Source: the human T2T-CHM13v2.0 reference genome, Homo sapiens
DNA: 64,000 bases
Assembly (NCBI RefSeq): GCF_009914755.1
Contig: NC_060947.1
Direction: 5' to 3' (one strand)
The translations under genes were made by a program, and so were the position numbers. Under the pieces are notes generated by a model, which had not been told where the DNA came from, searched no databases, and saw only the letters and a program-made list of their open reading frames with translations. This document shows, in pieces, positions 22,580-38,569 of this stretch. Every line of letters begins with the position of its first letter. Positions within the stretch are counted from its first letter, which is position 1.

Positions 22580-22857
22580 TATTTTTTATTTTTTTAGTTT
22601 TTATTTTTTTTAAAATTGTTTTGGTTTTTTTTTAATTAATTAATTTATTATTATTATACTTTAAGTTTTAGGATACATGTGCAAAATGTGCAGGTTCATT
22701 ACTTATGTATACATGTGCCATGCTGGTGCGCTGCACCCACTAACTCGTCATCTAGCATTAGGTATATCTCCCAATGCTATCCCTCCCCCATCCCCCAACC
22801 CCACAACAGTCCCCAGAGTGTGATGTTCCCCTTCCAGTGTCCATGTGTTCTCATTGT

Positions 22858-25800
22858 TCAATTCCCACCTATGAGTGAGAATATGCGGTGTTTGGTTTTT
22901 TGTTCTTGTGATAGTTTACTGAGAATGATGATTTCCACATTCGTCCATGTCCCTACAAAGGACATGAACTCATCATTTTTTATGGCTGCATAGTATTCCA
23001 TGGTGTATATGTGCCACATTTTCTTAATCCAGTCTATCATTGTTGGATGTTTGGGTTGGTTCCAAGTCTTTGCTATTGTGAATAATGCCACAATAAACAT
23101 ACGTGTGCAAGTGTCTTTATAGCAGCATGATTTAAAGTCCTTTGGGTATATACCCAGTAATGGGATGGCTGGGTCAAATGGTATTTCTAGTTCTAGATCC
23201 CTGAGGAAACACCACACTGACTTCCACAATGGTTGAACTAGTTTACAGTCCCACCAACAGTGTAAAAGTGTTCCTATTTCTCCACATCCTCTCCAGCACC
23301 TGTTGTTTCCTGACTTTTTAATGATTGCCATTCTAACTGGTGTGAGATGGTGATCTCATTGTGGTTTTGATTTGCATTTCTCTGATGGCCAGTGATGATG
23401 AGCATTTTTTCATGTGTTTTTTGGCTGCATAAATGTCTTTTTTTCAGAAATGTCTGTTCATGTCCTTCACCCACTTTTTGATGGGGTTGTTTGTTTTTTT
23501 CTTGTAAATTTGTTTGAGTTCATTGTAGATTCTGGATATTAGCCCTTTGTCAGATGAGTAGGTTGCAAAAATTTTCTCCCATTTTGTAGGCTGCCTGTTC
23601 ACTCTGATGGTAGTTTCTTTTGCTGTGCAGAAGCTCTTTGGTTGAATTAGATCCCATTTGTCAATTTTGTCTTTTGTTGCCATTGCTTTTGGTGTTTTAG
23701 ACATGAAGTCCTTGCCCATGCCTATGTCCTGAATGGTAATGCCTAGGTTTTCTTCTAGGGTTTTTATGGTTTTAGGTCTAACGTTTAAGTCTTTAATCCA
23801 TCTTGAATTGATTTTTGTATAAGGTGTAAGGAAGGGATCCAGTTTCAGCTTTCTACATCTGGCTAGCCAGTTTTCCCAGCACCATTTATTAAATAGGGAA
23901 TCCTTTCCCCATTTCTTGTTTTTCTCAGGTTTGTCAAAGATCAGATAGTTGTAGATATGTGGCATTATTTCTGAGGGCTCTGTTCTGTTCCATTGATCTA
24001 TATCTCTGTTTTGGTACCAGTACCATGCTGTTTTGGTTACTGTAGCCTTGTAGTATAGTTTGAAGTCAGGTAGCGTGATGCCTCCAGCTTTGTTCTTTTA
24101 GCTTAGGATTGACTTGGTGATGTGGGCTCTTTTTTGGTTCCATATGAACTTTAAAGTAGCTTTTTCCAATTCTGTGAAGAAAGTCATTGGTAGCTTGATG
24201 GGGATGGCATTGAATCTGTAAATTACCTTGGGCAGTATGGCCATTTTCACGATATTGATTCTTCCTACCCATGAGCATGGAATGTTCTTCCATTTGTTTG
24301 TGTCCTCTTTTATTTCCTTGAGCAGTGGTTTGTAGTTCTCCTTGAAGAGGTCCTTCACATCCCTTGTAAGTTGGATTCCTAGGTATTTTATTCTCTTTGA
24401 AGCAATTGTGAATGGGAGTTCACTCATGATTTGGCTCTCTGTTTGTCTGTTGTTGGTGTATAAGAATGCTTGTGATTTTTGTACATTGATTTTGTATCCT
24501 GAGACTTTGCTGAAGTTGCTTATCAGCTTAAGGATATTTTGGGCTGAGACGATGGGGTTTTCTAGATATACAACCATGTCATCTGCAAACAGGGACAATT
24601 TGACTTCCTCTTTTCCTAATTGAATACATTTTATTTCCTTCTCCTGCCTCATTGCCCTGGCCAGAACTTCCAACACTATGTTGAATAGGAGTGGTGAGAG
24701 AGGGCATCCCTGTCTTGTGCCAGTTTTCAAAGGGAATGCTTCCAGTTTTTGTCCCTTCAGTATGATATTGGCTGTGAGTTTGTCATAGATAGCTCTTATT
24801 ATTTTGAAACATGTCCCATCAATACCTAATTTATTGAGAGTTTTTAGCATGAAGGGTTGTTGAATTTTGTCAAAGGCCTTTTCTGCATCTATTGAGATAA
24901 TCATGTGGTTTTTGTCTTTGGTTCTGTTTATATGCTGGATTACATTTATTGATTTGCGTATATTGAACCAGCCTTGCATCCCAGGGATGAAGCACACTTG
25001 ATCATGATGGATAAGCTTTTTGCTGCGCTGCTGGATTTGGTTTGCTGGTATTTTATTGAGGATTTTTGCATCAATGTTCATCAAGGATATTGGTCTAAAA
25101 TTCTCTTTTTTGGTTGTGTCTCTGCCAGGCTTTGGTATCAGGATGACGCTGGCCTCATAAAATGAGTTAGGGAGGAGTCCCTCTTTTTCTATTGATTGGA
25201 ATAGTTTCAGAAGGAATGGTACCAGTTCCTCCTTGTACCTCTGGTAGAGTTCGGCTGTGAATCCATCTGGTCCTGGACTCTTTTTGGTTGGTAAGCTATT
25301 GATTATTGCTACAATTTCCGAGCGTGTTATTGGTCTATTCAGAGATTCAACTTCTTCCTGGTTTAGTCTTGGGAGAGTGTATGTGTCCAGAAATTTATCT
25401 ATTTCTTCTAGATTTTCTAGTTTATTTGTGTAGAGGTGTTTGTAGTATTCTCTGATGGTAGTTTGTATTTCTGTGGGATCGGTGGTGATATCCCCTTTAT
25501 CATTTTTTATTGTGTCTATTTGATTCTTCTCTCTTTTTTTCCTTATTAGTCTTGCTAGTGGTCTATCAATTTTGTTGATCCTTTCAAAAAACCAGCTCCT
25601 AGATTCATTAATTTTTTGAAGGTTTTTTTGTGTCTCTATTTCCTTCAGTTCTGCTCTGATTTTCATTATTTCTTGCCTTCTGCTAGCTTTTGAATGTGTT
25701 TGCTCTTGCTTTTCTAGTTCCTTTGTGATGTTAGGGTGTCAATTTTGGATCTTTCCTGCTTTCTCTTGTGGGCATTTAGTGCTATAAATTTCCCTCCACA

Positions 25801-26682
25801 CACTGCTTTGAATGTGTCCCAGAGATTCTGGTATGTTGTGTCTTTGTTCTCGTTGGTTTCAAAGAACATCTTTATTTCTGCCTTCGTTTCATTATGTACC
25901 CAGTAGTCATTCAGGAGCAGGTTGCTCAGTTTCAATGTAGTTGAGCGGTTTTGAGTGAGATTCTTAATCCTGAGTTCTAGTTTGATTGCACTGTGGTCTG
26001 AGAGACAGTTTGTTATAATTTCTGTTCTTTTACATTTGCTGAGGACTGCTTTGCTTCCAAGTATATGGTCAATTTTGGAATAGGTGTAGTGTGGTGCTGA
26101 AAAAAATGTATATTCTGTGGATTTGGGGTGGAGAGTTCTGTAGATGTCTATTAGGTTCGCTTGGTGCAGAGCTGAGTTCAATTCCTGGGTATCCTTGTTG
26201 ACTTTCTGTCTCGTTGATCTGTCTAATGTTGACAGTGGGGTGTTAAAGTCTCCCATTATTAATGTGTGGGAGTCTAAGTCTCTTTGTAGGTCACTCAGGA
26301 CTTGCTTTATGAATCTGGGTGCTCCTGTATTGGGTGCATATATATTTAGGATAGTTAGCTCTTCTTGTTGAATTGATCCCTTTACCATTATGTAATGGCC
26401 TTCTTTGTCTCTTTTGATCTTTGTTGGTTTAAAGTCTGTTTTATCAGAGACTAGGATTGCAACCCCTGCCTTTTTTTGTTTTCCATTTGCTTGGTAGATC
26501 TTCCTCCATCCTTTTATTTTGAGCCTATGTGTGTCTCTGCATGTGAGATGGGTTTCCCGAATACAACACACTGATGGGTCTTGACTCTTTATCCAATTTG
26601 CCAGTCTGTGTCTTTTAATTGGAGCATTTAGTCCATTTACATTTAAAGTTAATATTGTTATGTGTGAATTTGATCCTGTCTT
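22858..26682 (-). pseudogene. L1 ORF2 (endonuclease/reverse transcriptase), disrupted; a 522-aa open stretch at 24098-25666 covers the RT core
   Basis: EN fragment ([14 protein letters not shown]), RT motifs RQGCPLSP and LFADDM, C-terminal HCWWDC. Split into several frames and the ATG is mutated. Confidence 0.92.
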
Positions 26683-36900: not shown

Positions 36901-37736
36901 TCATGTCGAAAACACCAAAAGCAATGGCAGCAAAAGCCAAAATTGACAAATGGGATCTAATTAAACTAAAGAGCTTCTGCACAGCAAAAGAAACCACCAT
37001 CAGAGTGAACAGGCAACCTACAGAATGGGAGAAAATTTTTGCAACCTACTCATCTGACAAAGGGCTAATATCCAGAATCTACAATGAACTCAAATTTACA
37101 AGAAAAAAACAAACAACCCCATCAAAAAGTGGGCGAAGGATATTAACAGACACTTCTCAAAAGAAGACATTTATTCAGCCAAAAAACACATGAAGAAATG
37201 CTCATCATCACTGGCCATCAGAGAAATGCAAATCAAAACCACAATGAGATACCATCTCACACCAGTTAGAATGGCAATCATTAAAAAGTCAGGAAACAAC
37301 AGGTGCTGGAGAGGATGTGGAGAAATAGGAACACTTTTACACTGTTGGTGGGACTGTAAACTAGTTCAACCATTGTGGAAGTCGGTGTGGTGATTCCTCA
37401 GGGATCTAGAACTAGAAACACCATTGACCCAGCCATCCCATTACTGGGTATATACCCAAAGGATTATAAATCATGCTGCTATAAAGACACATGCACACAT
37501 ATGTTTATTGCGGCACTATTCACAATAGCAAAGACTTGGAACCAACCCAAATGTCCAACAATGGTAGACTGGATTAAGAAAATGTGGCACATATACACCA
37601 TGGAATACTATGCAGCTATAAAAAAGGATGAGTTCATGTCCTTTGTAGGGACATGGATGAAACCATCATTCTCAGCAAACTATCACAAGGACAAAAAACC
37701 AAACACGGCATGTTCTCACTCATAGGTGGGAACTGA
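33920..37736 (+). pseudogene. L1 ORF2, disrupted (ATG>GTG, several stops/frameshifts)
   Basis: Fragments [32 protein letters not shown] and HCWWDC lie in separate ORFs. Confidence 0.92.
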
Positions 37737-38569
37737 AGAATGAGAACACATGGACACAGGAAGGGGAACATCACACACCTGGGACTGTTGTGGGGTGGGG
37801 GCAGGGGGGAAGGATAGCAGTAGGAGATATACCTAATGCTAAATGAGGATTTAATGGGTGCAGCACACAAACATGGCACATGTATACATATGTAACAAAC
37901 CTTCACGTTGTGCACATGTACCCTAAAACTTAAAGTATAATAATAATAATAAACAAACAAACAAAAAAAAAAAGAAAATGTGGCACATATACACCATGGA
38001 ATGCTATGCAGCTATAAAAAAGGATGAGTTCATGTCCCTTGCAGGGACATGGATGAAGCTGGAAAACATCATTCTCAGAAAACTAACACAGGAACAGAAA
38101 ACCAAACACTGCATGTTCTCACTCATAAGTGGGAGTTGAACAATGAGAAAACATGGACACAGGGAGGGGAACATCACACACCGGGGCATGTTGAGGGGTG
38201 AGGGGCTAGGGGAGGGATAGCATTAGGAGAAATACCTAATGTAGATGACGAGTTGATGGGTGCAGCAAACCATCATGGCACGTGTATACCTATGTAACAA
38301 ACCTGCACCCTCTGCACATGTATCCCAGAATCTAAAGTACAATAAAAAAACTAAAGAAAACAAACAAACAAAAAGAATGATGTCAAACATTTTCAAGTTT
38401 TAGCGAACACATATTATTCACATAAACAAATGGATGCAGACATACACTTTTACTCACCTAGACGAATAGTTCATTGTTCCCAAAATTTATATACCAAAAA
38501 GAAAATTCCTATATATACTCAGTTTTCAAAAAGTAGCAGGAAAAAAATTTGGCCATGGAACTGATGGTG

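What the first reader, a model, noticed from the sequence alone, without database searches (positions are those of the whole stretch)
22580..37970. Inverted full-length L1 pair from different subfamilies shares private substitutions: probable arm-to-arm gene conversion
Seen: the minus L1 and the plus L1 form a ~6-kb inverted repeat around a 3.1-kb spacer. Their 5' UTRs (without vs with the ~129-bp segment) and 3' UTRs differ in subfamily-type positions, so they are independent insertions. Yet both carry the same non-CpG changes relative to the L1PA consensus as I remember it: ORF1 DIIQ>DILQ (33384 / 27218); EN KALLS>KAVLS (34556 / 26046); DQVGF>DQVCF (35613 / 24994); ARAIR>ARAMR (35957 / 24650); WLAIC>WLARC (36748 / 23859). 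Differences between the copies lie close to these sites (e.g. RTNDK vs RTKDK, TYLK vs TCFK). Inference: several short conversion tracts from repeated intrachromatid pairing, like palindrome-arm conversion but in a TE-built palindrome. Five coincident transversions arising independently is very unlikely.
Basis: partly seen in the sequence, partly recalled or inferred. Interest (0 to 1): 0.8.

Follow-up and report, generated by a model that had tools for sequence, protein, structure and literature searches.

The report
Inverted L1 pair sharing regional alleles
Two dead LINE-1 copies lying head-to-head in a NEXMIF intron do share unusual base changes, but half of these are also carried by dozens of other LINE-1s over several megabases of the same X-chromosome region, so the pair is one link in a regional web of shared variants rather than a self-correcting palindrome.

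Summary
Two full-length L1PA copies lie head to head around a 3.1-kb spacer. Each has its own target-site duplication, and they belong to different subfamilies. Both carry all five alleles.

"Private to the pair" fails for three of the five:
- ARAMR is a common L1PA polymorphism (10 of 30 copies).
- WLARC-G has 44 exact-match carriers genome-wide against 10,280 for the usual T. Twenty-nine of the 44 lie in chrX 71.9-77.3 Mb, on L1s of several subfamilies.
- DILQ-C has 14 carriers, 8 of them in chrX 73.1-74.2 Mb.

KAVLS-G and DQVCF-T are shared in this region only by the pair. Chance gives P of about 0.01 for that.

Two further rare alleles, one on each copy alone, are also shared with nearby L1s.

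The arms are not homogenised. They are 93.3% identical, and several unlinked copies are closer to the plus copy than its neighbour is.

Best reading: short-tract non-allelic gene conversion among neighbouring L1s, of which the pair is the closest edge. The 29-copy WLARC-G cluster is too large for simple conversion rates and remains unexplained. Ape orthologues are needed to settle it.

The parts
22645..28663 (-). L1 copy A: full-length L1PA of the younger ('Y') type. It lacks the extra 5'UTR segment, and its ORF1 and ORF2 are broken into several open frames.
   Evidence: BLAST and MAFFT alignment to B. ORF fragments of 157, 173, 522, 285 and 211 aa. Y state at about 40 of 50 ORF2 diagnostic sites.
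22572..22644 (-). A-rich tail of A and the downstream copy of its A-rich target-site duplication. Coordinates are approximate.
   Evidence: Read directly.
28664..31741 (.). Spacer of about 3.1 kb between the two 5' ends. It begins with the upstream copy of A's flank duplication.
31742..31812 (+). Left piece of an older L1 3' end that was split by B. Bases 31800-31812 are target-site duplication copy 1 (AAAGAAAATGTGG).
31815..37949 (+). L1 copy B: full-length L1PA of the older ('O') type, with the extra 5'UTR segment. Its ORFs are broken.
   Evidence: O state at about 40 of 50 ORF2 diagnostic sites.
32588..32710 (+). 5'UTR segment present in B and absent from A.
   Evidence: Gap in the A/B alignment. 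The regional copies L083, L087, L088 and L090 have it; L084 and L077 lack it.
37971..38378 (+). Target-site duplication copy 2 of B (37971-37983), followed by the right piece of the older L1 3' end.
33384..33384 (+). DILQ allele (A>C), partner base 27218 on A. It is regionally shared.
   Evidence: 14 exact carriers, 8 of them in chrX 73.1-74.2 Mb. The change completes a 6-bp inverted repeat.
34555..34556 (+). KAVLS dinucleotide AG, partner 26046-26047 on A. 34556 C>G is shared only by the pair in this region. 34555 A is the older-type state and sits on the younger-type copy A.
   Evidence: 26 carriers against 6,208 with C.
35613..35613 (+). DQVCF allele (G>T), partner base 24994. Shared only by the pair in this region.
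   Evidence: 20 carriers, the others scattered.
35957..35957 (+). ARAMR allele, partner base 24650. A common L1PA polymorphism.
   Evidence: ATG in 10, ATC in 12 and ATT in 8 of 30 copies.
36748..36748 (+). WLARC allele (T>G), partner base 23859. It belongs to the large regional cluster.
   Evidence: The change completes the 12-bp palindrome CTGGCTAGCCAG.

Best explanation
A and B are two independent, inactive L1PA insertions of different subfamilies that happen to lie head to head. They are not being kept alike. The unusual bases they share belong to a wider pattern. In this L1-dense part of Xq13, rare substitutions are shared among L1 copies of different ages over distances from about 10 kb to several Mb.

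The most likely cause is short-tract (under about 100 bp) non-allelic gene conversion between nearby L1s. Neighbouring Alus are reported to do the same. The A-B pair is the shortest edge of that network and shows at most one to three tiny tracts of its own.

Shown here:
- the two insertions are independent;
- they differ in subfamily;
- the alleles are present on both;
- the alleles' genome-wide counts and positions;
- the carriers belong to mixed subfamilies;
- there is no bulk homogenisation.

Inferred: that copying, rather than parallel mutation, made the sharing, and in which direction.
For: Independent insertions and different subfamilies.

A-B is the top pair of 276 for shared rare non-CpG transversions, with 3. 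From carrier frequencies of about 0.4% (24 of 6,232), I expect about 0.15 such sites in 6 kb by chance. That gives P=0.010 for the two pair-only sites.

At 34555-34556, A carries AG like B. All 17 younger-type panel copies have TC, and 4 of 5 older-type copies have AC.

Regional sharing, counted as other carriers inside chrX 71.8-77.3 Mb (table):
- 36748G: 27 of 42
- 33384C: 6 of 12
- 34483C, on A only: 4 of 32
- 36090T, on B only: 3 of 29, all at 73.12-73.15 Mb and on elements that also carry other regional alleles
- Baseline from eleven other alleles: 2 of 283
- Binomial P is 2e-46, 2e-10 and 1e-4 for the first three.

The carriers are not a clade and not duplicated segments:
- Ten sampled G carriers show at least five diagnostic-site haplotypes, spanning younger to older subfamilies. 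They are 92-97% identical to the panel.
- Elements that carry DILQ-C are 89-95% alike and fall into both A-like and B-like groups.
- The allele combinations are reticulate, not nested.

The same neighbour effect appears elsewhere. Carriers of KAVLS-G include pairs 32-44 kb apart on chr1 and chr7. These pairs are only 92.5% alike and are not each other's nearest relatives.

Precedent: Alu conversion among neighbours within about 10 kb (passages of PMC8230782).
Against: There is no bulk signal of exchange between A and B:
- d(A,B) is 4.87%, while six unlinked younger-type copies lie 4.33-4.44% from B. A ranks 5th to 18th of 18 in most 400-bp windows, and 1st or 2nd only in 36300-37099.
- Of A's 75 departures from its subfamily majority, 12 match B (16%). 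That is no more than for L002, L004 and L012.
- Runs of B-like states also occur in unlinked copies.
- Identical runs around the shared sites are short. The one at KAVLS is 92 bp, in the 6% tail. The longest run anywhere is 133 bp, permutation P=0.02, and holds none of the five sites.

The size of the 36748G cluster does not fit ordinary conversion rates. By my rough estimate 29 of about 73 exact-match copies in the region carry G, and 5 of 7 checked elements do. If conversion were frequent enough to do that, the diagnostic sites 50-65 bp away would also be scrambled, and they are not.

Eight of ten alleles carried by only one of the two copies show no regional excess.

The panel was chosen for likeness to B in 35400-36200. 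It has only 5 older-type copies, and 7 of 29 loci were dropped as truncated.

Exact-match counts miss diverged copies.
Confidence: 0.5

Rival explanations
1. One reading: repeated intrachromatid pairing of the two arms caused several arm-to-arm conversion tracts. These account for all five shared alleles, as in X/Y palindromes.
For: The pair is inverted, 3.1 kb apart, and ranks first of 276 pairs for shared rare transversions. The AG dinucleotide at 34555-34556 on A matches B against A's own subfamily. 34556G and 35613T are found in this region only on A and B.
Against: Three of the five alleles are not pair-specific. The arms are 93.3% alike and no closer than unlinked copies. Each candidate tract is bounded within 43-114 bp by unconverted diagnostic sites. 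Alleles carried by only one of the two copies are also shared with L1s 86-200 kb away, so the exchange partners are not just the two arms.
Confidence: 0.1
2. Descent: the shared alleles mark a small L1 sub-lineage whose source elements sat in Xq13 and inserted mostly nearby. On this view A, B and the other carriers inherited the alleles at insertion.
For: The clustering on chrX is extreme. B, and probably A, are bona fide retrotranspositions with target-site duplications.
Against: The carriers span several subfamily haplotypes and ages and are not each other's closest relatives. The allele combinations are reticulate: some elements have 33384C without 36748G, and others the reverse. A lineage keeping these alleles would have had to acquire about 40 ORF2 diagnostic changes in parallel with the main lineage. 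The best 40 scored matches to B's 35400-36200 are dispersed over the genome, though only 40 of 7,165 candidates were scored. Local reinsertion is not a recognised property of L1; this last point is from my own knowledge.
Confidence: 0.1
3. Parallel mutation: the same substitutions arose independently at many loci. The sites would be mutational or drive hotspots, for example through templated correction of quasi-palindromes or drive against a recombination-hotspot motif acting in this region.
For: 36748G and 33384C each complete a perfect 6-bp inverted repeat with a loop of 0-1 nt. None of eight other alleles does. A random substitution does so in 2.2% of cases. Sharing is confined to single sites, without linked markers. 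Each allele also occurs on scattered copies elsewhere in the genome.
Against: Outside chrX, 36748G is no commoner than any other transversion: 13 carriers against 10,280 with T. T>C or T>A at the same site gives 222 carriers. So the site is not a general hotspot. Stem-completing changes are not enriched among 1,545 departures from the majority (25, or 1.6%). Another stem-completing allele, 35448A, is not clustered. 34483C and 36090T are regionally shared, but I did not run the inverted-repeat check on them. The palindrome link was noticed after the fact.
Confidence: 0.2
4. Artefact: assembly or polishing cross-talk between L1 copies, or a bias of the search tool.
For: There is no direct evidence. 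Only one assembly could be examined, and no reads.
Against: The copies differ by 5-10%, and the shared bases are single sites flanked by differences. Pattern searches for other alleles from the same two elements gave scattered hits with no chrX bias, and the reversed-pattern controls gave 0. The T-allele search returned 10,280 hits genome-wide.
Confidence: 0.05

Closest known systems
Non-allelic gene conversion among neighbouring Alu elements (the whole-genome analysis cited in PMC8230782, of which I read passages)
   Same: Nearby copies of a dispersed retroelement share non-diagnostic substitutions more often than chance allows. The effect falls with distance, the tracts are short, and element type does not matter.
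   Different: The elements here are 6-kb L1s. Sharing reaches from 13 kb to several Mb, whereas about 10 kb is quoted for Alu. One allele reaches roughly a third of the copies in a 5-Mb domain.
Arm-to-arm gene conversion in X- and Y-chromosome palindromes (from my own knowledge; only the search listing of PMC11168930 was seen)
   Same: Inverted repeats of several kb around a short spacer on a sex chromosome, with conversion proposed between the arms.
   Different: Palindrome arms arise by duplication and are kept more than 99% identical. These arms are independent insertions, 93.3% identical, and no closer to each other than to unlinked copies.
L1 gene conversion at single loci (Burton et al. 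[quoted passage not shown]
   Same: Resident L1 copies can receive sequence from other L1s.
   Different: Those reports concern replacement of whole elements or large parts at single loci. They do not describe a regional pattern of single-site sharing.
Drive against recombination-hotspot motifs in repeats (recalled; only search listings were seen)
   Same: The same substitution would be fixed in parallel in many copies of a repeat.
   Different: No motif is known here. The effect is confined to one region, and it was not tested.

Membership tests
Full-length primate L1 (L1PA) insertion | 5'UTR, ORF1, ORF2 (endonuclease and reverse transcriptase), 3'UTR and an A-rich tail, about 6 kb in all | tested here: met
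   Translations match PDB L1 ORF1p and ORF2p chains at E values from 1e-113 to 1e-195. Lengths are 6,049 and 6,135 bp. Tails were read.
Full-length primate L1 (L1PA) insertion | Flanking target-site duplication, showing an independent insertion | tested here: met
   B has a 13-bp duplication within a split older L1 3' end. A has an imperfect A-rich duplication with different flanks.
Palindrome maintained by arm-to-arm gene conversion | Arms nearly identical (above 99%) along their length | tested here: not met
   93.3% identity overall, and 87-97% by 500-bp window.
Palindrome maintained by arm-to-arm gene conversion | Arms closer to each other than to any other paralogue | tested here: not met
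   Six unlinked copies are closer to B than A is. A ranks 5th to 18th of 18 in 8 of 10 windows.
Non-allelic gene conversion between dispersed repeats | Excess of shared non-diagnostic, non-CpG substitutions between physically close copies | tested here: met
   A-B ranks first of 276 pairs. Regional excess is seen for 4 alleles against a baseline of 2 in 283. Neighbour pairs on chr1 and chr7 show the same effect.
Non-allelic gene conversion between dispersed repeats | Mosaic tracts: runs of donor-type diagnostic states inside a recipient of another type | tested here: inconclusive
   Only 34555-34556 (with 34596 doubtful) on A. Unlinked copies show similar runs.
Non-allelic gene conversion between dispersed repeats | Derived state acquired after insertion, shown by orthologous loci in outgroup species | not testable with these tools
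   No ape genomes are held. Only the window's own assembly could be searched.
L1 sub-lineage defined by descent | Carriers of the alleles form a clade with linked shared substitutions | tested here: not met
   The carriers have mixed diagnostic haplotypes, and the allele combinations are reticulate.

The most novel reading that the evidence does not exclude
A domain of about 5 Mb in Xq13, around NEXMIF and distal to the X-inactivation centre, holds L1PA copies of several subfamilies and ages that have acquired the same single-base changes after insertion. T>G at ORF2 'WLAIC' is on 29 copies there, against 0.13% of copies elsewhere. A>C at ORF1 'DIIQ' is on 8. Others occur at lower counts.

This would reveal a regionally confined process acting on dispersed repeats. 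It would either copy sequence between them or drive particular sites. Candidates are GC-biased ectopic conversion within a chromatin domain, or hairpin-templated change. Such a process has not been described for L1.
Probability: 0.3. Interest if true: 0.8.

Novelty: new variant of a known kind. Interest (0 to 1): 0.5.

Why it matters
L1 ages, subfamily assignments and source-element trees all assume that copies evolve independently after they insert. If copies within a megabase-scale domain exchange or acquire the same bases in parallel, that assumption fails locally, and this region next to the X-inactivation centre is unusually rich in L1. A mapped set of about 30 loci sharing one marked base also gives a concrete way to measure ectopic conversion between dispersed repeats. 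Its range, tract length and GC bias could all be read from ape T2T genomes and human pangenomes. The inverted pair by itself is ordinary.

Tried and rejected
1. Segmental duplication as the source of the clusters. Rejected for chrX: ten carriers differ at diagnostic sites. Rejected for the chr1 and chr7 KAVLS pairs: 92.5% identity and not mutual nearest relatives. The chr15 pair is 95.8% alike and mutually nearest, so it may be a duplication.

2. General regional homogenisation. X-regional carriers share other rare alleles 7 times more often than panel pairs do (0.21 against 0.03 per pair in 311 bp). By my arithmetic this is what their greater divergence predicts, so I do not count it as evidence.

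3. Quasi-palindrome correction as a general cause. Two of two large-cluster alleles complete 6-bp stems. But there is no enrichment overall, and a third stem-completing allele is unclustered.

4. GC bias. The largest 3-Mb clusters are 24, 8, 5, 5 and 3 for five A:T>C:G alleles, against 2, 2, 3, 2, 3 and 2 for six others. This is left as a lead.

5. Reciprocal exchange by inversion between the arms. The swapped states at 35480 and 35795 are separated by unswapped sites, so this is rejected.

6. Long conversion tracts. They were not found.

7. A direct count of T against G among all L1s of the region was not possible.

9. Seven literature searches found no description of regional L1 allele sharing at Xq13. 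Supplements were not consulted.

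
Full report
**What is there**

The window holds two full-length L1PA elements, head to head, in an intron of NEXMIF.
- Copy A lies on the minus strand, from 28663 to about 22645, followed by an A-rich tail.
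- Copy B lies on the plus strand, at 31815-37949.
- About 3.1 kb separates their 5' ends.
- A global alignment gives 6,049 against 6,135 bp, with 400 substitutions, 192 gap columns and 93.3% identity.
- Identity is 88% in the 5'UTR and the first half of ORF1, 92-95% through early ORF2, 96-97% in 35805-37299, and 87% at the very end.
- Both elements are dead: their reading frames are broken into pieces of 157-522 aa.

**The two are independent insertions of different subfamilies**

- B interrupts the 3' end of an older L1 (31742-31812 and 37972-38378).
- B is flanked by the 13-bp duplication AAAGAAAATGTGG.
- A has different, A-rich duplicated flanks.
- B has about 123 5'UTR bases (32588-32710) that A lacks.

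For comparison I used a panel of genomic copies.
- The panel was 29 copies fetched as the best matches to B's 35400-36200.
- Seven were dropped as truncated (L009, L010, L011, L013, L014, L017, L024).
- That left 17 younger-type ('Y') and 5 older-type ('O') copies.
- Against this panel, 54 ORF2 and 3'UTR sites separate the two types.
- A is Y and B is O at about 40 of 50 scorable sites.

**The five alleles**

All five are on both copies at the stated places.

I searched the window's own assembly for exact 26-mers around each allele.

| Allele | Exact carriers | Where the carriers lie |
|---|---|---|
| ARAMR (35957) | 10 of 30 panel copies | common polymorphism; not searched genome-wide |
| KAVLS-G (34556) | 26, against 6,208 with C | the 24 others are scattered; none carries DILQ-C or DQVCF-T |
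| DQVCF-T (35613) | 20 | the 18 others are scattered |
| WLARC-G (36748) | 44, against 10,280 with T and 222 with C or A | 31 on chrX, 29 of them in 71.94-77.29 Mb |
| DILQ-C (33384) | 14 | 9 on chrX, 8 of them in 73.13-74.24 Mb |

**Who the regional carriers are**

- Ten G carriers were sampled, 311 bp each. At the flanking diagnostic sites they show at least five haplotypes, which reproduce the younger, intermediate and older L1PA types.
- These ten range from 92.5% to 97% identity to the panel.
- Elements that carry DILQ-C fall into an A-like group and a B-like group and are 89-95% alike.
- No other allele marks the regional copies.
- The carriers are therefore not a clade and not copies of one duplicated segment.
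- Of the seven regional DILQ-C elements where the WLARC site could be read, five have G and two have T.

**Testing how general the sharing is**

I searched ten further rare non-CpG transversions carried by A alone or by B alone, plus one from an unlinked panel copy.

Two of the ten are also shared regionally.
- 34483C, on A: 4 of 32 other carriers lie in chrX 71.8-73.9 Mb.
- 36090T, on B: 3 of 29 lie at 73.12-73.15 Mb, on elements that also carry 33384C, 34483C or 36748G.

The other eight, the two pair-only alleles and the control give 2 regional carriers among 283. Most of these are tabulated.

With that baseline of about 0.7%, I estimate roughly 73 of the 10,324 exact-match copies lie in the region. 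G would then be on about 40% of them. This estimate is rough.

Binomial probabilities for the three largest clusters are 2e-46, 2e-10 and 1e-4.

Small neighbour clusters of the same alleles appear on other chromosomes.
- Five carriers of 36908G lie in chr12 77.15-78.59 Mb.
- Pairs of KAVLS-G carriers lie 32-44 kb apart on chr1 and chr7. These pairs are only 92.5% alike.

**Are the two arms converting each other?**

Evidence in favour:
- A-B is first of 276 pairs for shared rare non-CpG transversions.
- Two pair-only sites have a chance probability of about 0.01, given about 0.15 expected.
- A carries AG at 34555-34556 like B, where its own type has TC.

Evidence against:
- A is not closer to B than unlinked copies are: 4.87% against 4.33-4.44% for six of them.
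- The share of A's departures that match B (12 of 75) equals that of L002, L004 and L012.
- B-like runs occur in unlinked copies too.
- Every candidate tract is hemmed in within 43-114 bp by unconverted sites.
- The longest identical run (133 bp, P=0.02) holds none of the five sites.

At most a few very short tracts passed between A and B.

**Reading**

The simplest account that covers both the pair and the region is short-tract non-allelic conversion among nearby L1s. This has been reported for neighbouring Alus (passages of PMC8230782). It explains three things:
- the reticulate allele combinations;
- the mixed subfamilies of the carriers;
- the decline from pair-only alleles, to alleles shared over 0.2-1 Mb, to one shared over 5 Mb.

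It does not easily explain how 36748G reached so many copies while diagnostic sites 50-65 bp away stayed distinct. That argument rests on my own rate reasoning, not on a computation.

36748G and 33384C each complete a perfect 6-bp inverted repeat (chance 2.2%). This may point to a site-specific cause. However, the property is not enriched in general, and a third allele of the same kind is not clustered.

Alleles that change A:T to C:G tend to have the largest clusters. A W>W allele clusters too.

**Limits**

- Only one assembly was searched, with no reads and no ape genomes.
- Exact matching misses diverged copies.
- The panel is biased towards copies like B and is short of older types.
- The regional denominator is estimated, not counted.
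- Seven literature searches found nothing on regional L1 allele sharing at Xq13. Subscription-journal papers on L1 conversion are cited from a reference list or from memory only.

Noticed in passing
window 36748 / 23859 and chrX 71.94-77.29 Mb of the assembly (places listed): 29 L1PA copies of several subfamilies in a 5.4-Mb stretch carry T>G at the ORF2 'WLAIC' codon. Only 13 copies outside chrX do, against 10,280 copies with T. Carriers often sit 4-30 kb apart in small groups.
   Followed up: partly
window 36737-36748 and 33379-33391: The two alleles with the largest regional clusters each complete a perfect inverted repeat: CTGGCT|AGCCAG and TTCTCC-A-GGAGAA. In the usual sequence the DILQ site instead lies in GGATA-T-TATCC.
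   Followed up: partly
assembly places listed: For almost every rare L1 allele searched, some carriers form pairs or triplets within 6-220 kb, often in inverted orientation. Examples: chr5 101.06/101.08 Mb, chr9 82.37/82.41 Mb, chrX 25.766/25.772 Mb, chr2 67.37/67.49 Mb. Whether these are old duplications or exchanges was checked only for three KAVLS pairs.
   Followed up: partly
window 27740-28827: The two RefSeq 'enhancer' features given in the hub's table coincide with the 5'UTR of copy A, the L1 internal promoter region.
   Followed up: no
window 31742-31812 and 37972-38378: B is nested in the 3' end of an older L1. The downstream piece is about 85% identical to the matching part of A. The 13-bp target-site duplication is intact.
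   Followed up: yes
window 22615-37949, minus-strand transcript of NEXMIF: Two 6-kb arms that are 93% alike and inverted within one intron could fold into a very long double-stranded RNA in the pre-mRNA. This is a possible editing or sensing substrate. It was not examined.
   Followed up: no
assembly contigs C13, C14, C15, C21, C22 below 7 Mb: Several rare L1 alleles recur on the short arms of the acrocentric chromosomes, presumably through the shared duplications there.
   Followed up: no
window 11071-11096: An older, diverged L1 ORF1 fragment lies upstream of the pair and has the usual A at the DILQ site. It is the only other L1 piece in the window that covers one of the five sites.
   Followed up: no
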